From a bacterium (GTDB taxonomy: Bacteria; Oederibacteriota; CAKKQC01): 64,000 bases of DNA. A model generated the notes under the pieces. It did no database searches. It saw only the letters and a list, made by a program, of their open reading frames with translations, and had not been told where the DNA came from. Each line of letters starts with the position of its first letter. Position 1 is the first letter of the stretch. The position numbers and the translations under genes are program-made. Location of the stretch: assembly GCA_919901855.1 (NCBI GenBank), contig CAKKQC010000007.1:87517-151516 (forward strand). Reading direction: 5' to 3'. This document shows, one piece after another, positions 6,001-61,678 of the stretch.

Positions 6001-9000
6001 TTGTAGGAACGGCTCCAGAGGAGGGCGCCGTCGGAATCGTACTTGCGCACATGCCAGTTGTTGCCCTGGAGGAGGTCCCAGCGTGCCTCGGCTCCCGCGA
6101 CGATGATATTGCCTCCGCCATCGATTGCCACGGCGTAGGCGCGGTCGAAGTAGTGGGCGGGAGAGTCGTAGGTCACGGTCCAGATCAGGTTGCCCGCGGG
6201 CCCGTACTTCCGGATCAGCCAGTTGCCGTCCTGGAAGATGTCGTACCGGCTCTCATGGCCGGCGACGACGGCGTTGCCCGCCCCGTCCACGGCCACAGCC
6301 GCCGCAGCGTCGGCGTAGTTCGCGGGGGAGTCGTAGTCCACGCTCCACACCTCGTTGGGCGGGCACCGCGCGGCGACCAGGGCGGTCGCGATGTCCAGCC
6401 TCACGCTGTGGACCGAGACCGGACGGTGCAGGCACGCATCCTCGCCCGTCACGGTGGCCGTGAACACGACGGATCCCGCCGCATCGGCGAGGTAGGTCCA
6501 GGTGAACGAGACCGATCCGCCGGGGTCGAGGACCACGGGACCGGCTGGCGTCGGACCGGTGACCAGGCTGGCGGCGCCCCCGGCCGGATGGCATACGAGC
6601 GCGGGGCTGAGGTCGAACAGCGGACCGGTGCCCGGGTTCGAGGCGTCCAGCACGACCGTGACCGGTTGGCCGACCGCCGCGGTCGAGGGCGACACCGTGA
6701 GCGTGGAGGCCAGCTCGCCGGCGGTGCCGGTGACGAGGGTGCCGGACGAGATGGCGGCGAGCAGGCATTCGGTGACCGGATCCGCCGCCTGCGCCCTGCC
6801 GGTCAGCGCCACCGCGCCCTGCCCCGATACGCTCAGGGTCCAGACGAAGACTTGGCGGCTCCCTGCCGCGATCGTGACCGGACCGGACGGTGAGGGCCCG
6901 CTGATCGATTCGACCAGCCCCGCGCCCTGGTCGAGCGTGAGCCAGGGGGTGACGCCCGGAATGTCGACCGCGGCCGTGTCAGTGACCGTGAGCGCGACCT
7001 CGAACCAGCGCCCCGTGCAGGCGCCGGCCGGGATCGAGAGGCTTCCGGTGAGCCATGCCGAGGCCAGCACCGTGATCGCGGGGGATACCCAAGGCCCCGT
7101 GTCGAGCGGACTCCCGCTGTTCGCGTCCCGGCCCGCGACGGTCGCGGTGAACTCGACGCTTCCGCCGGCGGTCGCCCGGTAGACCCAGGTCAGGCTCGTG
7201 CGCTGGCCTCCCTCGAGCCGGGCGACGGGAGGGGGGGAGGAGACGAGTGCGATCCCGCCGCTTCCTCCCGGTGAGAGGGCGGGCCCACCGACATCCAGCG
7301 CGGCGGCCTCCCCCGTGTTGGTGACGGTCGCGACGACGCTGACCAGGTTTCCGCCGCACACGGGGTCGGGCTGGGCCGTCAGCGGCCCTCCTTCCAGGAC
7401 GGCGGGACGCTGGACGGTCAGCACGACCGCGGGGTGCGCGGCCGGCATGGCCACGCCCGAGTTGGCGTCCGCAGCGGTGACCGTGGTCGAGAAGCGGACG
7501 GGCCCGGCCAGGGTCGCCGTGAATGTCCACGTGAACACGATCGCGGAACCGCCGGGCAGGCTCAAGGGAGGCACGGGCCACGGTCCCGCGAGGAGGCCCG
7601 CGTTCCCGGTGCCCGCGAGCAGGAGCGGCTCCATGGTGAGCCCGGCCAGGGCGGCCTGTCCGGTGTTGGTGACAGTCAGTGTGACCATGAAGGACTGGCC
7701 GGTGCTGGCCGGGTTCGGCACCGCCGCCAGCCGGGCATCCATGAGGGCCGGGACCTGGACGAGCGTTCCGGCCGCGTCGCCGTCGCACGGGTTGGCTCCC
7801 GCCGTCGCGTTGAACGCCGCCCGGCCCGTTCCGGTCGCCAGGAAGTGCCACGTAAACGTCTGCGCGCTTCCCGCCGGGACCGGGAACGGGCCGGCGGGAA
7901 CGGGCCCCGACACGAGGGTGACCAGCCCCGCGGCGGGCACGACGGCGATGGCGGGAGACGCCGCCGTCGTGCCGCTGCCGGTGTTCGTCACCGTAAGCGT
8001 GACGTCGAAGGACTGCCCGGAGGAGACCGTGTCCGGCGCGGCCGCGTGCGTGTCGAAGGGAACCGGATCGTCCACGAGGTTCGCCGCGGGGTCGGACGGG
8101 AACGCACGGCTCTCGCCCGTAAACGTGGCCGAGGCCCGGTTCGTGACGAGCGATCCCTGGGCGAGGGCGGAGGACACCGCGATCCGGTAGCCGATCGATC
8201 CCGACCGGCCCGGCGCGACCCGGTCCACGACCCAGCGCAGGACCAGGGGCGCCGCCGTGCCGGGGGCCGGGAGGCCGGGCGTCCACGGGCCGGCCGCCGA
8301 GGAGGCCCATGCCGATGACGTGAGAGCCGGCGTCCCGAGCGCGTCGGCCTGCGCGAAGAGACCGGGCTGGCCGGACGAGAACGCGGTGCCGTTCGGCAGG
8401 GTATCGGTGATGGTGAGCGCGAACGCGTTGGTCCACCCCCCCTTGGTCCACGAGATCGCGTAATCGACCGTCCGGCCCGCGCAGACATATCCGGCGGGGT
8501 TCGCCTGCTTGCGCACGACCAGCCGCGGCACGCCCGTGACCGTGGCCGTCGTCGAGACGTCCGCAAACCGGGGATCGTCCACGCGGGCGACGACCAGGTG
8601 GCGTCCCGGAGTCGCCGACAGGACGAGTGACGTCGTGAACCGGGGCGGGGTGCCCGCCGTGGTCCCCGTGGCCGGCACGATCGCGGCTCCCGGCGGGGAG
8701 GACACCAGCGTGGCGCGCACGGGGACACCCCGGATGGCGGCTCCGGTTCCGTCCCGGGCGACGATCTCGAGGGCCGTGATGAGGCCCGCCTCGTTCGGAT
8801 CAGGGACGGCCTTCACCTCGAGGGAAGCCGGGGACAGTCCCGGGATCGTGAAGGCGGGGAGGGGCATCCACAGGGGGGATTCGCTGTCCCAGTCGGTCAG
8901 GTAGGCGTCCGGCACGCAGGTCACGGGGGCGTAGCCCTCGTTGGGGTTGATGGCGAGCGTCGTCGAATACGAGCTGATGGTGGCGGCCATCCAGGTCTCC

Positions 9001-52000: not shown

Positions 52001-53046
52001 ACCTGCACGACCTCGAGACGCCGTGCGCGATCGTGGACCTCGACCGGCTGGAGGCGAACATCGAGAACCTTCAGGCGTACCTCGGGGGCCACGGCATCGC
52101 GAACCGGCCGCATATGAAGACCCACAAAGTCCCCGAGATCGCGCGGATGCAGATGAAGGCGGGGGCGATCGGGACCACGTGCCAGAAACTCGGGGAGGCC
52201 GAGGTCATGGCCGACGGCGGGATCGAGGACATCTTCCTGCCCTACAACCTGCTGGGGGCGGCCAAGCTCGACCGGCTCGTGAGGCTCGCGCGGCGGGTCA
52301 GGATGAGCGTCACGGCCGATTCGGCCGTCGTGGTAGAGGGTCTCTCCGCCGCGATCGCCAAGGCTGGGCTGACGCTCCCGGTCCTCGTCGAGTTCGACAC
52401 CGGGATCGGCCGGTGCGGGGTGCAGACTCCCGGGGAGGCGCGGGAACTCGCCCGGACGATCGCGGCGTCCCCGGGGCTCGTCTTCGCCGGGCTGATGACC
52501 TATCCGCACAACGAGCAGACCGTGCCCTTCGTCGAGGAGACGACGGCCCTGCTCGGGCGGGACGGGATCAAGCCCGGGATCGTGAGCCTCGGGGGGACGT
52601 CGGGCATGAAACAGGCGCACACGCGCAAGGGGGTGACCGAGTACCGGGCCGGGATGTACGCCTTCGGCGACCGGTCGTCCATCGCGTCGGGCGCGACCAC
52701 GCTGGCGAACAGCGCGCTCACGATCCTGACGACGGTCGTCTCGCGGCCGACGCCGGATCGGGGCATCCTCGACGCGGGGAGCAAGACGATCTCGTCGGAC
52801 CTCCTCGGCCTCACCGGTCACGGGCACGTGGTCGAGTACCCGGAGGCGACGATCGGGAAGCTGACCGAGGAGCACGGCCACGGCGACTTCGGGCCGTGCG
52901 CGCGGAAACCGAAGATCGGGGAACGGGTACGGGTGATCCCGAACCACTGCTGCCAGATCGCCAACCTGCTGGGGACCCTCTACGGGGTGCGGGGCGAGGA
53001 GGTCCGGATCGTCTGGCCGGTCCTGGCCAGAGGAAAAGTTCAGTAG
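51997..53046 (+). CDS. PLP-dependent DSD1-family enzyme (D-serine deaminase / D-threonine aldolase-like, alanine-racemase N-terminal fold)
   Basis: 3' part of track ORF 50356..53046 from GTG 51997 (VNLHDLETPCAIVDLDRLEANI); RPHMKTHK Lys motif. Confidence 0.7.
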   Translation: MNLHDLETPCAIVDLDRLEANIENLQAYLGGHGIANRPHMKTHKVPEIARMQMKAGAIGTTCQKLGEAEVMADGGIEDIFLPYNLLGAAKLDRLVRLARRVRMSVTADSAVVVEGLSAAIAKAGLTLPVLVEFDTGIGRCGVQTPGEARELARTIAASPGLVFAGLMTYPHNEQTVPFVEETTALLGRDGIKPGIVSLGGTSGMKQAHTRKGVTEYRAGMYAFGDRSSIASGATTLANSALTILTTVVSRPTPDRGILDAGSKTISSDLLGLTGHGHVVEYPEATIGKLTEEHGHGDFGPCARKPKIGERVRVIPNHCCQIANLLGTLYGVRGEEVRIVWPVLARGKVQ

Positions 53047-53053
53047 CTTACCC

Positions 53054-53090
53054 GACGCAGGTGGCCCCTTCCCAAGGGGTCACCTGCGTC
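53054..53090. terminator. Hairpin (15-bp stem with one mismatch, 7-nt loop) between convergent genes
   Basis: gacgcaggtggcccc-ttcccaa-ggggtcacctgcgtc. Confidence 0.4.
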
Positions 53091-53156
53091 GAGGCGTCGT
53101 CATCGACGCCCGATCGAAGTCCCCCTGCTTGGCCCGCTACCTTCGATGAGGCGTCG

Positions 53157-53921
53157 TCACCGACGCCCGTGGTCCCGGCGCCAGGCCTTGATCCGCTTCG
53201 CCGCGGCCGCGCGTCCGGACTGCTTCGCGACTTTCCGGCGGGGGGCGGTAACCGCGGTGCCGGCCTCGATCGGCTGGCCCTGCTGGATCTCGCTCTGCAC
53301 CAGCCGGTCCACGAACCGGTCGAGCCGGTCGCTCGACTTAGCCTGGGTAGTGATGCCCGTCGGCGGGATCGTGTAGGTCACCGGGCCGGTCGGCGTCGCG
53401 TACGCTGCCGTTGCGCCGATCGCGCCGGAAGACGCCGTCGCGACTCCGACCTGGCCAATGTGCCGGCCGATGGACCAGGCGATCCAGGTTTCGGCGGCCA
53501 GGCCCAGGAGTTCCGACCACGGCTGGGCGACGGTCTCGTCCGAGTCCGGACTTCCCCCGAGGTATCCGAAGAGCGTGCCGAGGCTGTCGAGCGTCTCGCG
53601 CAGCGGCGGCATGACGTTGACGACGGCGGCGACCGCCAGGAGGACGAGCATGACCCGCAGATTAACGACGAACCCGATGCTGAAATAGCGGTCCAGGATC
53701 GCGTGGCCGCCGGTCCCGCCGTTCCGGCGCCAGGCCCAGACGACCCCCGCGACGGTGATGACGAAGAGCAGGAAGACGACCGTCGCGGAATGGCTGGTGG
53801 CCGAGATGGACGAGAGAGTGACCAGGAGCATCCAGGCCAGCAGGTAGCGGAACCGGTCGGATTCAGACAGGCCTTCGCGCGCCAACTGTTCCTTGAGCGG
53901 ACGGACCCGGAGGAAATACAC
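53157..53921 (-). CDS. Hypothetical membrane protein (3-4 TM), GTG start
   Basis: Track ORF; LLAWMLLVTLSSISATSHSATVVFLLFVITVAGVVWAW. Confidence 0.55.
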   Translation of the reverse strand: MYFLRVRPLKEQLAREGLSESDRFRYLLAWMLLVTLSSISATSHSATVVFLLFVITVAGVVWAWRRNGGTGGHAILDRYFSIGFVVNLRVMLVLLAVAAVVNVMPPLRETLDSLGTLFGYLGGSPDSDETVAQPWSELLGLAAETWIAWSIGRHIGQVGVATASSGAIGATAAYATPTGPVTYTIPPTGITTQAKSSDRLDRFVDRLVQSEIQQGQPIEAGTAVTAPRRKVAKQSGRAAAAKRIKAWRRDHGRR

Positions 53922-54005
53922 GGTGGTTTATCTTATCAGGCCCTTGGCGCCCGGTGGTATAAGATAAGGCGAGAGACCCGAGAGGGAGCTGTAGGAGGAC
54001 AAGCC

Positions 54006-55034
54006 ATGAGGACGTTCCTGTTGACCGCCTTCGTCATCGTGTTCGCCGGCCGGACCGCGCTCGGGGATCCCGCGACGCCCGCGGTACCGGGCGGCGGGAA
54101 TCCAAACACCGACAACCCCAATGCCGCCACGCCGGCGGTGCCCGGCGGGGGTAACGACCAGGACAAGGACAAGCCCGCGACGACGCCCTCGGGGGTCACG
54201 CCCGGCCAGCCGGGCGGCGGGAACCCGAACAACGACAACCCGAACGCCGCGACACCTGCCCAAAAAGGCACGCCCGCGCCTGCGGCGACCCCGGCGCCGG
54301 CTCCTGCGCCGACCCCGATCCCGCGCCGCTCTCCGTCGTCGATGCCCGCGATCCGGACGACGCAGACCATCCCGCCCGGGGGCGCGCCGGCGCCGATGCC
54401 CGGTTATGCCGCGCCGGCCCCGGCCGCGTTGACTACTCCGTCCGTCTACGCCCAGCCGCCCGTCTACCCCCTGCTCCCGGGCACCGATGAGGTGGCACCG
54501 GGTCCCTCCGGGCCGCCGGTGCCGTGTCTCGCGATCCAGAGCACTATTCTCGCCTCGGGCGGGAAGTGGCTGCTGGTCCCCGTGCCGACCGCGGACCAGG
54601 TGCTCGTCATCGACGCGAAGCGGAACACGCTCATCACGCGGATCATGGTCGGGCCGGGCCCGGTGGCGGTCGCGGTTTCGCCGGACGGCAAGACCGCCTA
54701 CGTAGCCTGCTGGCACGCGGCCTCGGTCGCGGTCGTCAGCCTCGCGGACCTCAAGGTGACCGACACGATCCGGACCGGGCGCAACCCGTCCGCGCTCGTG
54801 GTCAGTCCCAACGGCAAGGAAGTCTGGGTCGCGGATGGCGGGGACAACACCCTGAGCATCATCGACGTCGGATTCCGCCGCGTGCTCGCCGTGGTGCCGG
54901 TCGGGCCCCTGCCGCAGGAGCTCACGGCGACGCCGGACGGCAAGACCCTGTTCGTGTCCAACGCGGGCGACGCGTCCGTGAGCGTCGTGGACATCGGAGC
55001 CCGCATGGTCACGACCGTCATCCGGGGACGTTAA
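54006..55034 (+). CDS. Secreted YVTN-family beta-propeller repeat protein with Pro/Asn-rich linker
   Basis: 3' part of track ORF 52023..55034 from ATG 54006 after ggagga; signal peptide MRTFLLTAFVIVFAGRTALG; duplicated GGGNPNTDNPNAATPA motif; repeats VAVSPDGKTAYVAC...SVAVVSLADLKV and VVSPNGKEVWVADGGDNTLSIID. Confidence 0.7.
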   Translation: MRTFLLTAFVIVFAGRTALGDPATPAVPGGGNPNTDNPNAATPAVPGGGNDQDKDKPATTPSGVTPGQPGGGNPNNDNPNAATPAQKGTPAPAATPAPAPAPTPIPRRSPSSMPAIRTTQTIPPGGAPAPMPGYAAPAPAALTTPSVYAQPPVYPLLPGTDEVAPGPSGPPVPCLAIQSTILASGGKWLLVPVPTADQVLVIDAKRNTLITRIMVGPGPVAVAVSPDGKTAYVACWHAASVAVVSLADLKVTDTIRTGRNPSALVVSPNGKEVWVADGGDNTLSIIDVGFRRVLAVVPVGPLPQELTATPDGKTLFVSNAGDASVSVVDIGARMVTTVIRGR

Positions 55035-55589: not shown

Positions 55590-56557
55590 GGACGCGGCGG
55601 CCGGGACGGACGGGGCTCGACCAGTCGGTGCTGGGTCTCGGCGGCCACGAGTTCCTGCCCGACGGACGGTCCCGCGGGTTCAACGAGGACTACGGACGCG
55701 CCACGAGCGCGGGGGTGATCTTCCCCGGGTTCGGGGGGGAGCGGCGGCGGGGCGTGGTGGCGGCCGCGCACGCGGCGGGGATCAACTTCTTCGATGTCAC
55801 CATCGACTCCGAGAAGGAGGCGCTCGGCCGCAACCTGCGCGAGTGTCCGCCGCCACGCGAGATCGCGGTCCAGACCCGGCCCGAGGGCATGGTCTACACG
55901 AACAATCCAGACGATGCGCACAACTGGCGGATGGCGGACCTCGGGCTCCTCCGGGACGAGGTGCGCCGCGGCCTCGGCCTCCTCGGGCGGCCGCGCGTGG
56001 ACTTCCTGAACCTCGGGTTCATGGGGTCCGCGGTGGAGCACGACCCCGGCTACCTGGCGAAGATCGTCCGCAACGTCCGGGCTCTCAAGGACGATGGGCT
56101 GATCCGGTTCGCCTGCGCGGACACCTTCTCGGGCGAATGGCTCTACGAGCGCCAGATCGGGACGGGGGCCTTCGACGGGATCTTCATCAACTTAAACCTC
56201 GCCGACGACGGGCCGGCGCGCCGGATCCTTCCGCTGGCCGCCGACCTCGGGCTATCCGTGCATTGCCGCGAGGCCTTCCTCAAGGGCGAGCTCTTCCGGC
56301 TGGGAGAGGCGGCGGGGGTGACGGACCGCGCCGCGCTGGCGCGGGCGGCGCTCCGGTGGGTTCTCGCCCACCCCCAGGTCACCACCGTCGTGGTCGGGGC
56401 GGACAATGCGGCCCAGCTCGAGGCGGCGGTCGCCGCAGCGGAACAGCCGGAGCTCGACGACCAGGATCGCGGACTCCTCGACCGGGTCCGGGCCACCGGG
56501 GCGTTCCGCGACGTCCAGGACGGGAAACGCAGGGCGTTCGGCACGTATACTGCCTGA
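55586..56557 (+). CDS. Aldo/keto reductase family oxidoreductase
   Basis: 3' part of track ORF 55277..56557 from GTG 55586 overlapping the GNAT stop (GTGA); N-terminus RTRRPGRTGLDQSVLGLGGHEF; C-terminus AALRWVLAHPQVTTVVVGADNAAQLEAAV. Confidence 0.7.
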   Translation: MRTRRPGRTGLDQSVLGLGGHEFLPDGRSRGFNEDYGRATSAGVIFPGFGGERRRGVVAAAHAAGINFFDVTIDSEKEALGRNLRECPPPREIAVQTRPEGMVYTNNPDDAHNWRMADLGLLRDEVRRGLGLLGRPRVDFLNLGFMGSAVEHDPGYLAKIVRNVRALKDDGLIRFACADTFSGEWLYERQIGTGAFDGIFINLNLADDGPARRILPLAADLGLSVHCREAFLKGELFRLGEAAGVTDRAALARAALRWVLAHPQVTTVVVGADNAAQLEAAVAAAEQPELDDQDRGLLDRVRATGAFRDVQDGKRRAFGTYTA

Positions 56558-56566
56558 TGGAGGTAC

Positions 56567-57010
56567 GTGACCCATGACGACTGCGCTGGAGGAATCCTGG
56601 ACCCCGCCGGCCTGAGCATAGATCCGGAATCGCCGGAGGGGGTCAACCGGCGTGCGTCACCGCGTCGCCCGGTCCGGATCGCGGGCACGGCGTGGATCGT
56701 CGCGCGCGTGGTCGCCCCGCCCTTCAAGGTCGAGGCAACCGATGTCAGCGCCGGCGGGATGATGCTCCACGGCACCTCGCGCGCCTTCCCCGAGCTGGAG
56801 CCCGGCGACGAGTTCATGATCGGGTTCCCGGTCGAGCACTCCAAGGAGGACGTCAGCGTGCGGGGCAGGCTGGCGTGGAAGCGGATGGGGTTGATGACCC
56901 TGCTCGGGGACTGGTCCTTCGGCATCCGGTTCCACGACACGCCCGAGTCCGTGATCCTCAAGCTCCTCGACGTGGCCGCGCGCCAGCGGGAGAGTCCCCA
57001 AAAGCCCTGA
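56567..57010 (+). CDS. PilZ-domain (c-di-GMP-binding) protein
   Basis: Track ORF, GTG start after ggagg; RRASPRRPVRI (RxxxR) and DVSAGGMMLHG (D.S.GG). Confidence 0.6.
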   Translation: MTHDDCAGGILDPAGLSIDPESPEGVNRRASPRRPVRIAGTAWIVARVVAPPFKVEATDVSAGGMMLHGTSRAFPELEPGDEFMIGFPVEHSKEDVSVRGRLAWKRMGLMTLLGDWSFGIRFHDTPESVILKLLDVAARQRESPQKP

Positions 57011-57042
57011 CGGGGCCGCCGTCTGCGGCGGAGGCGCCCGAA

Positions 57043-58695
57043 TTGAACGCGGACGCGCGGGGGGCGTACAATCCCGACGCAATGACCGCCACCGCCCGCG
57101 CCCTGCCGCCCCTCGACCGCCCGCTCTTGTGGGGCCGCCTCTACCGGGAGGCCGAGCTCCTGAAGGCCGCGCTTCGCGTCTACACCAAGCCCCTGTTCGC
57201 GTGGCGCAAGGCCCTCGCGGTCTCGACCGACGACCGCACGCTCTACGACTTCGCGCGCTCGGGTTTGAAGCATCTCGACCGCATGCACGGCGAGCTCGCG
57301 CGCGGCGAGTTCCGGTTCCGGCCGGGGCTGGCGCTTACGTTCAACTTCAACGGCAAGCGTCGAACCCTGCACATCTACCCGTGGGAGGAGCGGGTCGTGG
57401 ACCTCCTGCTGTACCGGCTGCTCACCCGGTCCCTGCACGGCTGGCTCTCGCCCCACGCGTGGGCCTACCGGATCACGGGGTTCGGCGTGGACCGGTGCCA
57501 GCGCGGAGTGGCGAAGGCCCTTCAGCGGGGCGGAGGACCCCGGTACGTGGTCAAGCGGGACATCACGGAGTATTTCGCGTCCGTGGACCACGGGATTCTG
57601 CTGGAGCAGGTCGGCTCGCTGGTGGCGCCTGGCGACCCGCTCATGCGCCTGCTCGAATCCCGGGTGCGGTTCCAGTACCGGCGCGACGGCGAGACGCTGA
57701 CCGCGGACCGCGGCATCCCGTTCGGGACCGCGGTCGCGTGCGCGTTCGCGAACATCCACTTGACGGGGCTGGACCGCGACCTGGCCGCGATCCCGGGGAT
57801 CGCGTACTTCCGGTACGCGGACGACATACTCGTCGTGACGCCGGATGGCCCGGCGGCGCGCCGGGCGGCGTCGGTTATCGACGACGCGCTAGCCTCCCTG
57901 CGATTGACCGACAAGGCAAGTCACCGGCACGACTACTATTTCGCCGCGCCCCCGGGTCCGAGGACGGACCCGCCGCGCGAAGCCTTCGGCTTCGCGGGGG
58001 TTTCGCGGTTCAGGCATTTGGGATTGGAGTACCGCGCGGACGGGTCGATCGGGCTCTCGCGCGACAAGTTCCGGAAGATCATGAACCTGTTCCGGTACGC
58101 GTTCCGGCGCAAGGCGAAGCGGCTCGCGCGGATGAAGGACCCGGAGGCGCGGGCGCGCACCGCGGTCGAGCTCGCACGCCAGGTGCTCGAGAACGGAATG
58201 CGGAACATCGCGATCGTGGACTACTACCTCAAGCACGTGACCGACGAGGCCCAGCTCGGCCTGCTCGACCGCTGGCTGGCCGAGGAGGTTCTCGCGATCG
58301 CGACCGGCCGGGGCCACCGGAAGGGCAACTTCCGCGTTATTTCCTACGGGCGCCTGCGGGCCCTGGGTCTGCCGTCGCTCGTGCATCGGCGCCGGCTCAT
58401 TCGGCACGGTCACCTGGATTCGTCGTTCTTCATATGGAAGATTCAGCAGGCCCGGCGCGCGGCCGGACGAACGGAGGGGACGGCTGCCACCCCCGGAAAG
58501 GGCCCGCAAGGGCCGCTTCGCCGGGGATTCTCTCCAAGCCCAGAAGCAGCGGCAATTGAAACGCCCGTGGGAGAGGGCGCCGCCTGTCGATGGGTGTCAT
58601 TGAAGAATGCTGCCGCTACGCGGCAGCATTCGTTTCCCAAGCCGTCCTTTCCATTGGTCACGGCCGCGCACACCAGTCAGGAGGATCCGAGGTGA
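57043..58695 (+). CDS. Standalone reverse transcriptase (group-II-intron-like / retron-like lineage, with thumb/maturase-like extension), no intron RNA context
   Basis: 3' part of track ORF 56692..58695. Start is either TTG 57043 (GGAGG 8 nt upstream) or ATG 57082. Motifs FRFRPGLALTFNFNGKRRTLHIYPWEERVVDLLL (1-2), VVKRDITEYFASVDH (A), GIPFGTAVACAFANIHL (B), YFRYADDILVV (C, YADD), NIAIVDYYLKH...LDRWLAEEVL (thumb). The upstream flank is PilZ coding sequence, so intron domains I-III are impossible. Confidence 0.75.
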   Translation: MNADARGAYNPDAMTATARALPPLDRPLLWGRLYREAELLKAALRVYTKPLFAWRKALAVSTDDRTLYDFARSGLKHLDRMHGELARGEFRFRPGLALTFNFNGKRRTLHIYPWEERVVDLLLYRLLTRSLHGWLSPHAWAYRITGFGVDRCQRGVAKALQRGGGPRYVVKRDITEYFASVDHGILLEQVGSLVAPGDPLMRLLESRVRFQYRRDGETLTADRGIPFGTAVACAFANIHLTGLDRDLAAIPGIAYFRYADDILVVTPDGPAARRAASVIDDALASLRLTDKASHRHDYYFAAPPGPRTDPPREAFGFAGVSRFRHLGLEYRADGSIGLSRDKFRKIMNLFRYAFRRKAKRLARMKDPEARARTAVELARQVLENGMRNIAIVDYYLKHVTDEAQLGLLDRWLAEEVLAIATGRGHRKGNFRVISYGRLRALGLPSLVHRRRLIRHGHLDSSFFIWKIQQARRAAGRTEGTAATPGKGPQGPLRRGFSPSPEAAAIETPVGEGAACRWVSLKNAAATRQHSFPKPSFPLVTAAHTSQEDPR

Positions 58696-59396
58696 AGATC
58701 ATCGATTGTCCGTACTGCAACCAGCCGGGGGCGGAGAAAAGCCTGTTCAAGACCCGGTGTCCGAACCCCGCGTGCCCGGCGTATGACCCTGAGATGAGGG
58801 GCGGGCTCTCCGTGAACCGGTCGACGACGGAGGCGCGGACCGAGATGCCGGCCCGCCCCGTGTCTCCGGAGTCCGCGCAGCCGAAGCCGGGCGAGCTCCT
58901 GCCGCAGGCGGGCGAGGGTGCCCCCGGCCGGCCGGAGTCCGACCGCAAGACCGTGGAGGTGAAGGCGAAGGGGGGCGGTTGCGGCGGAGCGCTCCTCCTC
59001 TGGGTCGCCGCCTACTTCGCGTTCCGTTATGCGCTTCGCCACGGCTCCTACTGGTGGGGGCTCGTCGCCTTCTTCGTGTTCCTCGCGTGGAGCAAGTCGC
59101 GCCAGGAGACGGCCCGCGCGGCCCGGCGCCCCGCGGCGACGCGCGAGATCGATAAGGAGACGGGTAAGCCCGTCATCGTTTACGAGGAGCCGTTCGACGC
59201 CGGTGGCGAGCACGGGGTCGAGATCCGGTACAAGAACTGGAAGGGCGAGACCAAGACCTTCGTCGGCGACCGGCGGACGATGCGGCGCCGCGGCCGCCAT
59301 CTGTCCCTGCGCGTCGCGCCCAATGGCGTCCGGATCGCGCTCGCGCTCGACCGGATCCAGAATCTGCCCGAGGCGGAGGCCGCAACCCCGAAATGA
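58692..59396 (+). CDS. Zinc-ribbon / 2-TM membrane protein with C-terminal PH- or WYL-like domain, translationally coupled to the RT
   Basis: 3' part of track ORF 58590..59396 from GTG 58692 (overlaps the RT stop; aggagga 6 nt upstream); CPYCNQPG...CPNPACPAY; [18 protein letters not shown] and [13 protein letters not shown]; C-terminus [23 protein letters not shown]. Confidence 0.6.
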
Positions 59397-61678
59397 AGCT
59401 CTGGTACCGCGAGCCGGCGGCGGCGTGGTTGCACGCGCTGCCCGTGGGGAACGGACGGCTCGGGGCCATGGTCTTCGGCGGCACGCGCGAGGAGCGGCTC
59501 CAGCTCAACGAGCTCTCGCTCTGGGCGGGAGCCCCTGGCGATTGCGCGAATCCCGAGGCGCTCGCCCACCTGCCCGAGGTCCGGAAGCTGGTCTTCGCGG
59601 GGCGGTACGCGGAGGCGGAGGCGCTCTGCGACCGGTTCCTACTGGGCTCCCCGAACGCCGTCCGGCCGTACCAGGCCCTGGGCGATCTGCGGCTAGTCTT
59701 CGACGGCGTGGGAGAGGCGGACGGCTACCGGCGCGAACTCGACATCGAGACAGCGATGGCGAGGGTCATCTTCACCTCGGGGGGCGTGGGTCACCGGCGG
59801 GACGTCTTCGCGAGCTTCCCCGACCAGGTGATCGTCGTCCGGCTCGAGGCCTCGGGACCCGGCGGACTCTCGTTCACGGCCGCAATCTCGCGGGAGGCGG
59901 ACGCCGCGATGATACCGGCCGGCACGGACCTCGCGCTGACGGGGGCTTGCGACGGCGGGCAGGGACTCGCCTTTGAGGCGCGCGTCCGGTGCGTCGCCGA
60001 GGGGGGCACCGTGTCGGTGGGATCATCCGGGCTCCGCGTCGAGGGCGCGAGGGCCGCCACCCTCCTCATCGCGGCGGCCACGGCGTGGGACGGGAGGAAC
60101 CCCGGCGCCGAGTGCGCCGCGGCGCTCGACCGGGCGTCTGCGAAGTCCTTCGAGGACCTGCTCGCGGCCCATGCGACCGACCACCTCGCGCTCTTCGGCC
60201 GGGTCTCGCTGGACCTGGGCGGCGCCGCGGGGGGGGACCTCCCGACAGACGAACGGCTGGTCCGGGTGGGGCGCGGTGAGCCCGACCCCGATCTCGAGGC
60301 CACGCTGTTCCAGTACGGCCGGTACCTGCTCATCGCCTCCTCCCGGCCGGGCGGACTCCCGGCCACGCTACAGGGCCTCTGGAACGACTCGCTGACCCCC
60401 GCCTGGGACTGCGACTGGCACCTGAACATCAATCTCGAGATGAACTACTGGCCGGCCGAGCCGTGCGCCCTGCCCGAGTGCGCTGAGCCCCTGCTCGCCC
60501 TCGTCGAGTCCCTGCGCGAGTCCGGCCGCCGCACGGCCCGCGTCCACTACGGCTGCGGCGGGTTCGTGGTCCACCATCTCACCGACCTCTGGGGATTCAC
60601 GGTGCCCGCGAACGCGTCGAAGTACGGGCTATGGCCGATGGGCGCGGCGTGGTTATGCCGGCACCTATGGGACCGCTGGGATTACGGCCGGGACCCCGCG
60701 GGCCTGGCCCGACTATACCCGGTGATGAAGGAGGCCGCGGACTTCTTCCTCGACTTCCTGGTCGAGGACCCCGAGGGCCGCCTCGTGACCTGCCCGTCGA
60801 TGTCGCCGGAGAACGTGTTCCGGACCGCCGACGGCCAGGTTGCTTCCGTGTGCGCGGCACCTGCGATGGACGTCCAGCTCATCGACGACCTCCTGGCCCG
60901 CGTCGCCGACGCCTCCGAGATTCTCGGGGTCGACGAGGACTACCGGGAGCGCGTGCTCGGCGTGCGCGCCCGCCTCCCCGGGATGCGCATCGGGCGGCAC
61001 GGCCAGCTCCAGGAGTGGGCCGAGGACTTCGAGGAGGTGGAGCCCGGCCACCGCCACGTGTCGCATCTGTGGGCCGTCTATCCCGGCGACGGGATCACCC
61101 CGCGGGCCGCGCCCGAGCTGGCGACGGCGGCCCGGCGGTCGCTCGAGCGCCGGCTCGCGCACGGCGGGGGCGGGACCGGGTGGAGCCGCGCCTGGGTCGT
61201 CGCGCTCTGGGCGCGGTTCGGCGAGGGCGCCTTCGCGCACGCGAGCATCCTCGAACTCCTGCGCCACAGCGTCGAGCGGAACCTGTTCGACCTGCATCCG
61301 CCGCATATCTTCCAGATCGACGGGAACTTCGGGGTGTCGGCTGCGATGGCCGAGATGCTCCTGCAGTCCCACGGCGGGGACCTCATCTTCCTCCCGGCCC
61401 TTCCCCCGGCCTGGCCCGACGGCCGCGTCACCGGGCTGCGCGCCCGCGGCGGGTTCACCGTGGACCTGGACTGGTCCGCGGGAGTGCTCACGCGCGCGAT
61501 TGTGCGGGCGAGCGTGCCCCTCGTCTGCCGCGTCCGGTCCGCCGTGCCCCTCGGGTTCGCCCCGGGTCCGGCCTCGGACCCGGGGGCACAGGACGCGCCC
61601 GTGGCCGACACCCCGGAGCCCGGGGTTTTCGAGTTCGAAGCCGAATCCGGCGGCGTCTACGAATTGGTTCCGGGATGA
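59393..61678 (+). CDS. GH95 alpha-L-fucosidase
   Basis: Track ORF; [30 protein letters not shown]...[11 protein letters not shown]95 N-terminal signature; ATG overlaps the previous stop (ATGA). Confidence 0.85.

What the first reader, a model, noticed from the sequence alone, without database searches (positions are those of the whole stretch)
56567..59396. Standalone reverse transcriptase translationally coupled to a Zn-ribbon 2-TM effector-like protein, preceded by a PilZ protein: candidate RT-based defence (DRT/Abi-like) module
- The RT has motifs 1-2, A, B, C (YADD) and a group-II-intron-like thumb.
- Its flanks are coding sequence, so it is not a mobile group II intron.
- No msr/msd-sized non-coding gap is present for a retron.
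- Its stop overlaps the start (GTGA, with AGGAGGA RBS) of a small membrane protein with an N-terminal C4 zinc ribbon, two TM helices and a C-terminal domain ending ...[12 protein letters not shown] (WYL/PH-like).
- RT plus 2-TM partner pairs are the hallmark of several defence-associated RT systems.
- This particular combination, located inside a glycan-utilisation operon, is not one I recognise.
Basis: partly seen in the sequence, partly recalled or inferred. Interest (0 to 1): 0.7.

Follow-up and report, generated by a model that had tools for sequence, protein, structure and literature searches.

The report
Reverse transcriptase with hidden partner RNA
The flagged reverse transcriptase belongs to a widespread cassette, not described in anything I could search, made of the enzyme, a highly conserved folded RNA hidden inside the end of its gene, and a small zinc-binding protein; this probably makes DNA from that RNA, but the product and purpose are unknown.

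Summary
The genes are there as described: PilZ, a YADD reverse transcriptase (RT), and a Zn-ribbon protein whose GTG start overlaps the RT stop. The interpretation needs correcting.

- **Hidden RNA.** The last ~220 nt of the RT ORF are a conserved, pseudoknotted ~178-nt RNA (58474-58651). It shows strong covariation and has no Rfam match. In 76 of 79 related loci the RT stop codon falls inside it.
- **Conserved cassette.** Promoter, RT, RNA and Zn-ribbon/small beta-barrel protein occur together in 80 genomes, mostly Acidobacteriota.
- **Lineage-specific parts.** The two membrane helices occur only in the Coatesbacteria-like lineage. PilZ is shared only with the nearest relative. The glycan-gene context is not conserved.
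- **Classification.** The RT scores best against UG26 (Class 2 UG/Abi) but only at 110 bits, so it is at most a distant relative. It is not a retron or a group II intron.
- **Phage relatives.** Distant RTs on large viral contigs keep a diverged copy of the RNA in other positions and on the other strand. This points to an RT-RNA particle rather than a cis-regulator.
- **No defence context.** 150 neighbour proteins from 41 distinct neighbourhoods show no defence or mobile-element enrichment.

Most likely mechanism: RNA-scaffolded or RNA-templated DNA synthesis, as in characterised Class 2 systems. The template, product and biological role are inferred, not shown.

The parts
56567..57010 (+). PilZ-domain gene. 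It is an adjacent neighbour, not part of the conserved cassette.
   Evidence: Pfam PilZ E=1.4e-7. tblastn finds a homologue next to the RT only in L001, the Coatesbacteria relative, among 80 loci.
57043..57072 (+). Sigma-70-like promoter TTGAAC-18 nt-TACAAT, ending 10 nt before the RT ATG. This implies a leaderless or very short 5' UTR.
   Evidence: It is the only promoter-like site in 56300-59700, against 0.2 expected. An equivalent TTGnnn-17/18-TA(c/g)AA(t/c) block sits just 5' of the RT in L001 and many Acidobacteria loci.
57082..58695 (+). RT ORF of 537 aa. The part conserved as protein ends near residue 470 (about nt 58491, motif RGTAAR). The remaining ~68 codons are read-through of the ncRNA.
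   Evidence: RVT_1 at residues 110-275. Best PADLOC match is RT_UG26 at 110.6 bits. More than 1000 homologues were found; the 120 best listed are 52-100% identical to it. Alignment A1 shows an invariant motif A Asp (KRD) and a C-terminal GLPSLVHRRR motif; the YADD box is invariant at Y and the last D, with one member reading YGGD. Stop positions vary across relatives.
58474..58651 (+). Conserved pseudoknotted ncRNA.
- P1: 58474-58485 / 58640-58651
- J1/2 (GCC): 58486-58488
- P2: 58489-58495 / 58522-58528
- Pseudoknot: 58529-58534 / 58569-58574
- P3: 58538-58542 / 58591-58595
- P4: 58546-58554 / 58579-58587
- P5: 58563-58566 / 58575-58578
- J3/6: 58596-58605
- P6: 58606-58617 / 58620-58630
- J6/1 (CGUUUCCCA): 58631-58639
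   Evidence: RNAalifold predicts 46 pairs, 34 with compensatory changes. With the pseudoknot added, 96.9% of cells are paired against 39-51% in slid controls, and 37 of 52 pairs change on both sides. Window MFE is -100.9 kcal/mol, z = -5.0. The covariance-model hit is 133.6 bits at 58474-58657. No Rfam match at E<=1.
58679..58685 (+). Shine-Dalgarno AGGAGGA for the partner gene.
   Evidence: Read directly from the sequence.
58692..59396 (+). Partner protein, 234 aa.
- Zn ribbon: aa 6-28 (nt 58707-58775)
- Disordered linker
- Helical, probably membrane, hairpin: aa ~97-145 (nt 58980-59126)
- Small beta-barrel plus terminal helix: aa 175-231 (nt 59214-59384)

Its stop overlaps the GH95 start (ATGA, 59393-59396).

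Best explanation
The window holds one copy of a self-contained cassette: own promoter, RT, a ~178-nt pseudoknotted ncRNA that overlaps the RT's last codons, and a small Zn-ribbon/beta-barrel protein.

**Shown**
- The three parts co-occur in every related bacterial locus with enough sequence.
- The RNA has a covariation-supported fold.
- The RT catalytic motifs are kept in 23 of 24 aligned members (one reads YGGD).
- The partner is built only from nucleic-acid-binding-type modules.
- Distant phage RT relatives keep the RNA at other positions and on the other strand.

**Inferred**
- The RT binds this RNA to form a ribonucleoprotein. It uses the RNA as scaffold and template for DNA synthesis, as the characterised Class 2 UG RTs (DRT2, DRT9, DRT10, Drt3a) do.
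- The most plausible template or start region is the invariant single-stranded CGUUU(U), just 5' of the closing helix's 3' strand.
- The Zn-ribbon/Sm-WYL-like partner binds the RNA or the single-stranded DNA product and passes the signal on.
- In the window's lineage the partner has gained a membrane hairpin, so the output may act at the membrane.
- Anti-phage defence is the leading guess for the role, by analogy only.
For: - **Co-occurrence.** The covariance model gives one strong plus-strand hit at the RT 3' end in the window and in all but one of the 80 genome loci; L054 has two, and L010, whose contig ends inside the RT gene, has none. These include more than 30 loci not used to build the model. 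The partner is present in all loci with more than 400 nt downstream.
- **RNA rather than protein constraint.** The RT stop lies inside the element in 76 of 79 loci, at variable offsets.
- **Structure.** 96.9% of cells paired and 37 of 52 pairs compensatory. The pseudoknot helix is 100% paired, with 3 covarying pairs.
- **Strand.** Reverse-strand scores are 24-31 bits against 114-176 bits forward, and G-U pairs are frequent.
- **Acts in trans.** Diverged RNA copies accompany 33-36% identical RTs on viral contigs: upstream on the same strand in L083, and on the opposite strand in L084 and L085.
- **RT affinity.** The best PADLOC profile is UG26 for all 24 family members tested, with Drt9, UG17 and UG4 close behind. 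Among PDB matches at 67-73 bits are group II RTs, Cas6-RT-Cas1 and entry 9ioa.
- **Precedent.** Class 2 UG RTs use ncRNA templates (PMC12632851; 10.64898/2026.04.29.721553; PMC12483538).
- **Partner fold.** A small barrel that matches ssDNA-bound WYL proteins and Hfq.
- **Own promoter.**
Against: - There are no expression, RIP or cDNA data. The template, the primer and even RT-RNA binding are inferred.
- The UG26 score is only about 18 bits above a generic RT profile, so the Class 2 analogy rests on weak homology.
- 150 neighbour proteins from 41 distinct contexts show housekeeping or metabolic families. There are no integrases or transposases, and only generic PADLOC hits.
- Most partners lack any recognisable toxic or effector domain.
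- The RNA sits directly 5' of the partner gene and duplicates together with it in L054, which also fits a cis-leader role.
- A marine RT variant (L086) has no RNA hit between the RT and its partner.
- No stop-free concatemer frame exists, so a DRT2-type de novo gene is unlikely.
Confidence: 0.55

Rival explanations
1. The RNA is a cis-regulatory element. It would be a structured 3' end of the RT message or a 5' leader of the partner gene, bound by the RT or the partner to control translation or stability. It would not be a template.
For: - It always overlaps the RT stop region and lies 20-180 nt 5' of the partner start.
- In L054 the RNA and partner duplicate as one unit.
- In L085 the RNA copies sit 5' of small genes.
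- Group II intron proteins autoregulate by binding RNA at their own start codon (general knowledge).
Against: - The partner's RBS and start lie outside the fold at a variable distance, and no expression platform is conserved.
- In L084 the RNA lies 3' of the small gene and on the strand opposite the RT. In L083 it precedes the RT.
- Invariant unpaired nucleotides (GCCA, AAGC, AUnGAAG, CGUUU) are kept from bacteria to phage. That fits an RNP active core better than a leader.
Confidence: 0.15
2. One reading: a two-protein DRT/Abi-like defence pair in which the RT acts without RNA and signals to a 2-TM membrane effector, with PilZ as part of the module.
For: - In the window and in L001 the RT is coupled to a partner with two hydrophobic helices.
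- The best profile comes from a defence HMM library.
- RT plus 2-TM (SLATT) pairing exists in DRT10 (PMC12632851).
Against: - A conserved ncRNA is present.
- TM helices are absent from most partners.
- PilZ is shared only with L001 and lies outside the promoter.
- The partner has no SLATT or other PADLOC hit.
- There is no defence-island context.
Confidence: 0.07
3. A retron-like element. A closing helix plays the part of a1/a2. The invariant G right after its 5' strand acts as a 2'-OH branch primer. Reverse transcription starts next to the 3' strand and yields an msDNA-like product.
For: - Topology: a 12-bp closing helix, an invariant G at J1/2, an invariant CGUUU next to the 3' strand, and a hairpin (P6) in the msd position.
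- An accessory protein lies in the same operon.
Against: - The NCBIfam retron model scores 29.6 bits against a cutoff of 235, and PDB retron RTs are weak matches.
- The RT is about 480 aa with group II-like N- and C-terminal extensions.
- The RNA is 3' of the RT rather than 5'.
- No Rfam family of any kind matches at E<=1, so any retron RNA model the library holds did not match.
Confidence: 0.1
4. Same RT-RNA machine, but the biological role is not anti-phage defence. It could be, for example, DNA repair or another cellular function. In the phage relatives it could be a counter-defence or replication function.
For: - No defence or mobile-element enrichment around 41 distinct contexts.
- Unusually high conservation of RT and RNA across phyla, with listed RT homologues at least 52% identical to the window protein.
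- Relatives are encoded by large phages.
- Group II-like RTs with repair roles are known (G2L4 PDB entries; PMC12439943).
- Defence prediction for UG26 was inconclusive (PMC9226505).
Against: - Patchy distribution: 111 confirmed relatives in a scan of one genome for each of 185,579 species, spread over roughly ten lineages by the records' own names.
- Many different neighbourhoods, typical of accessory or horizontally moved genes.
- The nearest profiles are all DRT families.
- WYL-like barrels are common in defence regulators.
Confidence: 0.3
5. A degenerate group II intron or other decaying retroelement whose RNA is a remnant of intron domains.
For: The RT fingers and palm are most similar to group II intron RTs among solved structures. 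TIGR04416 gives a partial match.
Against: - TIGR04416 scores 85 bits against a cutoff of 300.
- No Intron_gpII or other Rfam hit at E<=1 in the window or in 8 loci.
- The upstream flank is coding sequence or promoter, and the RNA is one closed domain.
- One RNA and one RT copy were found in each stretch examined, and both are under strong purifying selection.
Confidence: 0.02

Closest known systems
UG26 (Class 2 UG/Abi RTs; Mestre et al. 2022, PMC9226505)
   Same: It is the best-scoring profile for the window RT and for all 24 family members tested. The alignment runs through the thumb (profile positions 69-391 of 398). It is a stand-alone RT with no fused domain, and its defence status is unresolved.
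   Different: - The score is only 110-132 bits, barely above a generic RT profile.
- UG26 as published had 35 members, 9 of them next to a Vsr-like YcjD endonuclease, and no reported ncRNA or Zn-ribbon partner.
- Here the partner is a Zn-ribbon/barrel protein, and no YcjD-like family appeared among the commonest neighbour families listed.
DRT9 (UG28) RT-ncRNA system
   Same: An RT plus a highly conserved structured ncRNA with a short conserved U tract. The PADLOC Drt9 profile gives moderate hits (PMC12483538).
   Different: - The DRT9 ncRNA lies upstream of the RT and has no dedicated partner protein.
- Its product, poly-dA primed by C-terminal tyrosines, is demonstrated.
- Here the RNA is 3' of the RT and pseudoknotted.
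- The U run is only 2-6 nt, and nothing is known about the product.
DRT10 (UG17): RT + ncRNA + SLATT 2-TM effector
   Same: A tripartite architecture of RT, ncRNA and small partner. In the window's lineage the partner has two hydrophobic helices. UG17 profile hits reach 66-124 bits (PMC12632851).
   Different: - The partner is not SLATT (no PADLOC hit) and is soluble in most members.
- No defence-island association.
- The RNA fold is unrelated as far as can be judged.
Retrons
   Same: An RT with an ncRNA closed by a long-range helix, plus an accessory protein in one operon.
   Different: RT sequence models fail (29.6 bits against a cutoff of 235). The gene order is reversed. No msr/msd features were verified.
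Group II intron RTs and G2L RTs
   Same: Closest solved RT folds by sequence: GsI-IIC at 72.6 bits and G2L4 at 51.6 bits. YADD motif.
   Different: No intron RNA. No maturase-level match (85 bits against a cutoff of 300). It carries a dedicated ncRNA and partner instead.
UG27 (phage-encoded Class 2 RT with an intergenic ncRNA)
   Same: The distant relatives L083-L085 are phage-encoded RTs accompanied by a structured ncRNA and small neighbouring genes (PMC9226505).
   Different: UG27 profile scores are low, at 36-59 bits. The UG27 RNA is described as three long stem-loops and its hosts are gut Bacteroidetes and Firmicutes.

Membership tests
UG26 (Class 2 UG/Abi) | RT scores as a member against the group's profile, clearly above other RT profiles. 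| tested here: inconclusive
   RT_UG26 is the top hit: 110.6 bits for the window, with a best E of 1.7e-40 among 24 members. A generic RT profile scores 92 bits (best E 1.1e-36). No reference tree or cutoff was available.
UG26 (Class 2 UG/Abi) | Occasional co-location with a Vsr-like YcjD endonuclease (9 of 35 members in the original description). | tested here: not met
   No such family appears among the 25 commonest Pfam families of 150 neighbour proteins from 41 contexts. This feature is not obligatory for UG26.
Class 2 UG RT-ncRNA systems (DRT2/9/10, Drt3a) | A dedicated structured ncRNA genetically linked to the RT. | tested here: met
   The link persists in phage relatives.
Class 2 UG RT-ncRNA systems (DRT2/9/10, Drt3a) | The ncRNA templates repetitive cDNA synthesis. 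| not testable with these tools
   This needs cDNA sequencing or biochemistry. The only result here is that a whole-loop stop-free concatemer frame (DRT2-like) is absent.
Anti-phage defence system (guilt by association) | Enrichment next to known defence genes or on mobile elements. | tested here: not met
   PADLOC on 150 neighbours gave 8 families, all sporadic or generic. Pfam showed metabolic and housekeeping families.
Retron | A retron-type RT (NCBIfam/PADLOC retron models) with msr-msd upstream. | tested here: not met
   retron_St85_RT scores 29.6 bits against a cutoff of 235. The RNA is downstream of the RT. No Rfam family matches.
Group II intron | A maturase-type RT inside an intron RNA with domains V and VI. 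| tested here: not met
   TIGR04416 scores 85.4 bits against a cutoff of 300. There is no Intron_gpII hit at E<=1. The flanks are a promoter or coding sequence.
WYL domain (partner C-terminal barrel) | Match to Pfam WYL, or a clear structural match to WYL Sm-like barrels. | tested here: inconclusive
SLATT / 2-TM effector | A SLATT-type two-TM domain conserved with the RT. | tested here: not met
   No PADLOC or Pfam hit. The helices are present only in the window-type subclade (P0133-P0138, P0200, L001).
PilZ | Pfam PF07238 above the gathering score, plus conserved linkage to the RT. | tested here: not met
   The domain is present at 32.2 bits against a cutoff of 22.5. Linkage is seen only in L001, 1 of 80 loci.

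The most novel reading that the evidence does not exclude
This would be a previously undescribed RT-ncRNA ribonucleoprotein family. It is shared by Acidobacteriota, about ten other bacterial lineages and large phages.

Its RNA has a core-closing helix, a pseudoknot and invariant single-stranded tracts. This architecture recalls telomerase-type and DRT10-type template RNAs.

On this reading it would make a new kind of templated, possibly repetitive, DNA product. Interchangeable small partner proteins would read that product out: Zn-ribbon/Sm-like barrels, membrane-anchored versions, L7/L12-CTD fusions, and unrelated phage proteins. Its role would not be classical defence-island immunity.
Probability: 0.3. 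Interest if true: 0.85.

Novelty: new variant of a known kind. Interest (0 to 1): 0.74.

Why it matters
RT-ncRNA systems such as retrons, DRT2, DRT9, DRT10 and DRT3 have each revealed an unexpected way of writing DNA, and several have become tools.

This cassette adds a compact and very well conserved RT-RNA pair with a clean covariation-supported fold. It has hundreds to thousands of natural variants and phage-borne relatives. None of it is covered by Rfam, by Pfam or NCBIfam for the partner, or by the DRT literature I could search.

It is directly testable: clone about 2.4 kb, then sequence the bound RNA and the DNA product.

It also shows a practical trap. In high-GC genomes an ncRNA can be completely hidden inside an open reading frame, so 'no intergenic gap' does not exclude an RNA component.

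Tried and rejected
- **DRT2-like de novo gene.** No concatemer frame of the P1-enclosed loop is stop-free across members, and loop lengths are not multiples of three.
- **Group II intron remnant and retron.** Both fail their sequence and RNA tests.
- **P6 plus U tract as an intrinsic terminator.** The scan flags it, but it lies inside the P1 closure, whose 3' strand covaries. Termination there would destroy the conserved fold.
- **Viral small proteins as diverged partners.** hhalign probability is 0.1, so they are unrelated.
- **Supplementary tables of Mestre et al. for UG26 members.** Not held.
- **afdb50 fold library.** Unavailable.
- **Exact lookup of the window RT's own contig.** Not on record.
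- **Word-indexed search for partner homologues.** It found only 20. The full HMM scan found 276 representatives.
- **Literature searches for UG26, WYL/Zn-ribbon RT systems, DRT11 and above, and jumbo-phage RTs.** No description of this cassette turned up.
Full report
**1. What is at the coordinates**

The window is ~70% GC. The RT is 100% identical to a protein named as coming from a Candidatus Coatesbacteria MAG. Three same-strand ORFs are present.
- **PilZ protein**, 56567-57010 (Pfam PF07238, E=1.4e-7).
- **Reverse transcriptase**, 57082-58695, 537 aa. It matches RVT_1 (E=7.6e-13) and carries FRYADDILVV.
- **Partner protein**, 234 aa, from GTG 58692 to 59396. It is preceded by AGGAGGA, and its start overlaps the RT stop (GTGA).

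The partner has no hit in Pfam, PADLOC or NCBIfam. It has an N-terminal CxxC...CxxxxC ribbon, two long hydrophobic helices and a C-terminal beta domain. Its own stop overlaps the start of a GH95 gene. The wider surroundings are an aldo-keto reductase, a GNAT, a D-Ser-dehydratase-like gene and a BNR-repeat protein.

**2. The RT family and its partner**

The RT has more than 1000 homologues. The 120 best listed are 52-100% identical to it, and the records are named Acidobacteria, Planctomycetota, Elusimicrobia and others. A scan of one genome per species returned 80 loci. By the records' own names, 68 are Acidobacteriota/Terriglobia. The rest are named Coatesbacteria, Elusimicrobia, Planctomycetes, Omnitrophota, Eisenbacteria, Binatia, FCPU426, Limnocylindrales and others.

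tblastn with the window partner finds a homologue immediately downstream of the RT. This holds in every locus that has more than 400 nt of sequence beyond the RT. PilZ is found only in L001, the other Coatesbacteria genome.

The general partner architecture has five parts:
- an N-terminal MGFLDFL motif;
- a Zn ribbon with four invariant Cys;
- a variable linker;
- a ~55-residue beta domain (IRYRNFxGxxxTF...VAPTGxRIALxRDRIQNLxEVE);
- a two-helix tail (ERQVLxYHKKxGxTSPLYExIRxKYPxW).

The window and L001 proteins insert the helical hairpin and lack the tail. Planctomycete and Omnitrophota versions duplicate the barrel.

So the partner is built from nucleic-acid-binding-type modules. The '2-TM effector' is a lineage-specific elaboration.

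**3. The hidden RNA**

In the RT alignment the C-terminal tail looked conserved (RGTAAR...AFSPxPEAAA...VGE), yet its end points varied. Translating the RT frame in 61 loci showed stop codons in the middle of this 'motif', with conservation continuing after them. In 76 of 79 loci the RT stop lies inside the element, 24 to about 180 nt from its start.

A nucleotide alignment of 46 non-redundant copies (A2) gave the following.
- **RNAalifold:** 46 pairs, 34 with compensatory double changes.
- **Pseudoknot:** I added a six-pair helix, UCUCUC with the GAGAGA in the P5 loop, supported by UUUCCC/GGGAAA and UCUCCC/GGGAGA variants.
- **Formal count:** 96.9% of cells paired against 39-51% when partners are slid. 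37 of 52 pairs change on both sides, and 0 of 500 shuffles reach the observed values. The pseudoknot helix is 100% paired.
- **Window copy:** folds at -100.9 kcal/mol, z = -5.0.

The architecture is as follows.
- A 12-bp closing helix P1, followed by invariant GCC(A).
- A variable hairpin P2.
- The pseudoknot.
- A P3-P4-P5 stack with conserved internal loops.
- A conserved single strand, (G/C)UnAUnGAAG.
- Hairpin P6 with a UAAA/UGAA loop.
- An invariant CGUU followed by one or two more U in most copies.
- The P1 3' strand.

Window coordinates are 58474-58651.

A covariance model finds one strong plus-strand hit at the RT 3' end in the window and in all but one of the 80 genome loci. L054 has two, and L010, whose contig ends inside the RT gene, has none. 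More than 30 of these loci were not used to build the model. Forward scores are 114-176 bits against at most 31 bits on the reverse strand. Rfam 15 has no match at E<=1 in the window or in eight loci.

The statement 'no msr/msd-sized gap' is therefore true only because a 70% GC sequence happens to lack stop codons.

**4. The cassette is autonomous and is not in defence islands**

A sigma-70-like promoter, TTGAAC-18-TACAAT at 57043-57072, is the only such site in the region. It ends 10 nt before the RT ATG. An equivalent TTGnnn-17/18-TAcAAT block precedes the RT in L001 and many Acidobacteria loci. This places PilZ outside the unit.

All-against-all clustering of flanking ORFs shows that only the RT and the partner are shared by the loci. 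The next-largest flank clusters occur in at most 21 of 80. I took 150 immediate neighbour proteins from 41 distinct neighbourhoods.
- The commonest Pfam families are ClC channels, CBS, inositol-phosphate synthase, M48 peptidases, methyltransferases and PQQ dehydrogenases. No integrase or transposase appears among them.
- PADLOC gives only sporadic generic hits.
- Two long contigs with precomputed Pfam calls agree.

**5. Classification of the RT**

- **PADLOC:** the best profile is RT_UG26, at 110.6 bits for the window and with a best E of 1.7e-40 among 24 members. The alignment runs through the thumb. A generic RT profile scores nearly as well, and UG4, UG17 and Drt9 follow.
- **NCBIfam:** group II maturase scores 85 bits against a cutoff of 300. 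The retron model scores 29.6 against 235. Drt3a, Drt2 and Drt4 are far below their cutoffs.
- **PDB:** group II RTs, Cas6-RT-Cas1 and entry 9ioa all score about 67-73 bits.

UG26 was described as a Class 2 UG/Abi group with 35 members, an occasional Vsr-like neighbour, an inconclusive defence prediction and no reported ncRNA (PMC9226505). I conclude that the family is a distant UG26-like lineage. Membership cannot be settled without the reference phylogeny.

**6. Relatives that inform mechanism**

Three IMG/VR contigs of 125-354 kb encode RTs 33-36% identical to the window RT, sharing the C-terminal GLxSLxHRxRL motif. With filters off, the covariance model finds diverged but complete copies of the RNA. 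All helices are kept through compensatory changes, and the GCCA, AAGC, AUG-AAG and CGUUUU tracts are retained.
- L083: 7816-7961, just 5' of the RT (E about 6e-9).
- L084: 6767-6929, on the opposite strand (E about 1e-9).
- L085: three copies on the opposite strand (E from 1e-6 to 7e-5).

The neighbouring small phage proteins are unrelated to the bacterial partner. Hence RT plus RNA is the conserved core, and the RNA does not need to be in cis with the RT message. This favours an RNP over a purely cis-regulatory element.

L054 carries a tandem duplicate of RNA plus partner.

A marine subfamily has partners with 2-4 barrels and a C-terminal L7/L12-CTD-like domain. One of them lies 22 nt after an RT 51% identical to the window's, with no RNA hit on that short contig.

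**7. Mechanism**

*Shown:* the three-part cassette, the RNA fold, catalytic motifs kept in 23 of 24 aligned members (the Elusimicrobia one reads YGGD), and the nucleic-acid-binding character of the partner.

*Inferred by analogy:* Class 2 UG RTs all use a dedicated ncRNA as scaffold and template for iterative cDNA synthesis (PMC12632851, PMC12483538, 10.64898/2026.04.29.721553). By that analogy, the RT binds this RNA and copies part of it.

The best template or start candidates are the invariant single strands. The first is CGUUU(U), next to the closing helix. This resembles both the DRT9 U tract and a retron-like start site, with an invariant G after the P1 5' strand. The second is the AUnGAAG tract.

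A DRT2-type endless ORF is unlikely.

The partner would bind the RNA or the ssDNA product. In the window's lineage it is probably membrane-anchored.

The biological role is open. Defence is suggested by family resemblance and by the patchy, multi-context distribution. Nothing in the neighbourhoods supports it.

**8. Novelty and verdict**

RT-ncRNA-accessory systems are a known kind. I did not find this RT lineage, its pseudoknotted RNA or its Zn-ribbon/barrel partner described in the following sources:
- Rfam, Pfam, NCBIfam or PADLOC, beyond the weak UG26 similarity;
- the searchable literature up to mid-2026. That library is incomplete, so prior description elsewhere cannot be excluded.

I rate it a new variant of a known kind. 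Interest is high because the RNA component was invisible to ORF-based reading and the system is immediately testable.

Noticed in passing
L054:7303-8757: In a Planctomycetaceae MAG the ncRNA plus partner cassette is tandemly duplicated. The RNAs are at 7303-7476 and 8252-8424. Both partner copies lack the Zn ribbon.
   Followed up: partly
L083:7816-7961; L084:6767-6929 (-); L085:6940-7852 (-): Large viral contigs (125-354 kb) encode RTs 33-36% identical to the window RT, plus diverged copies of the same ncRNA. The copies sit in different positions and on different strands, with three copies in L085. They lie beside tandem paralogous small proteins unrelated to the bacterial partner.
   Followed up: partly
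L086:3-2606 (proteins P0213, P0221, P0245, P0252, P0259, P0283): Marine relatives of the partner carry 2-4 beta-barrel repeats and a C-terminal domain matching ribosomal protein L7/L12 CTD (PF00542). P0213 lies 22 nt downstream of an RT 51% identical to the window RT. The covariance model finds no RNA on that short contig.
   Followed up: partly
protein P0194 (411 aa): This protein is the N-terminal half of the RT fused directly to a partner sequence. It lacks YADD, the thumb and the RNA region, so it is apparently a deletion derivative of the cassette.
   Followed up: no
L003 / L082 (protein P0014): The Elusimicrobia family member has YGGD in place of YADD. It still keeps the RNA and the partner.
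   Followed up: no
window 59393-59396: The partner gene's stop overlaps the ATG of the GH95 glycoside hydrolase gene (ATGA). The cassette is therefore tightly packed into the surrounding glycan-related genes. That context is not conserved in the 41 distinct neighbourhoods examined.
   Followed up: partly
window 57043-57072 and equivalent sites in L001, L006, L008, L015 and others: A conserved sigma-70-like promoter (TTGnnn, 17-18 nt, TAcAAT) lies 10-30 nt upstream of the RT start codon. This suggests a leaderless or near-leaderless RT message.
   Followed up: partly
window 53928-55034 (+ frame ORF 52023-55034, C-terminal part): A protein with a Pro/Gly/Asn-rich repetitive N-terminal region (PAVPGGGNPNTDNPNAATPA repeats), followed by what looks like beta-propeller repeats. 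It was seen only in the ORF listing.
   Followed up: no
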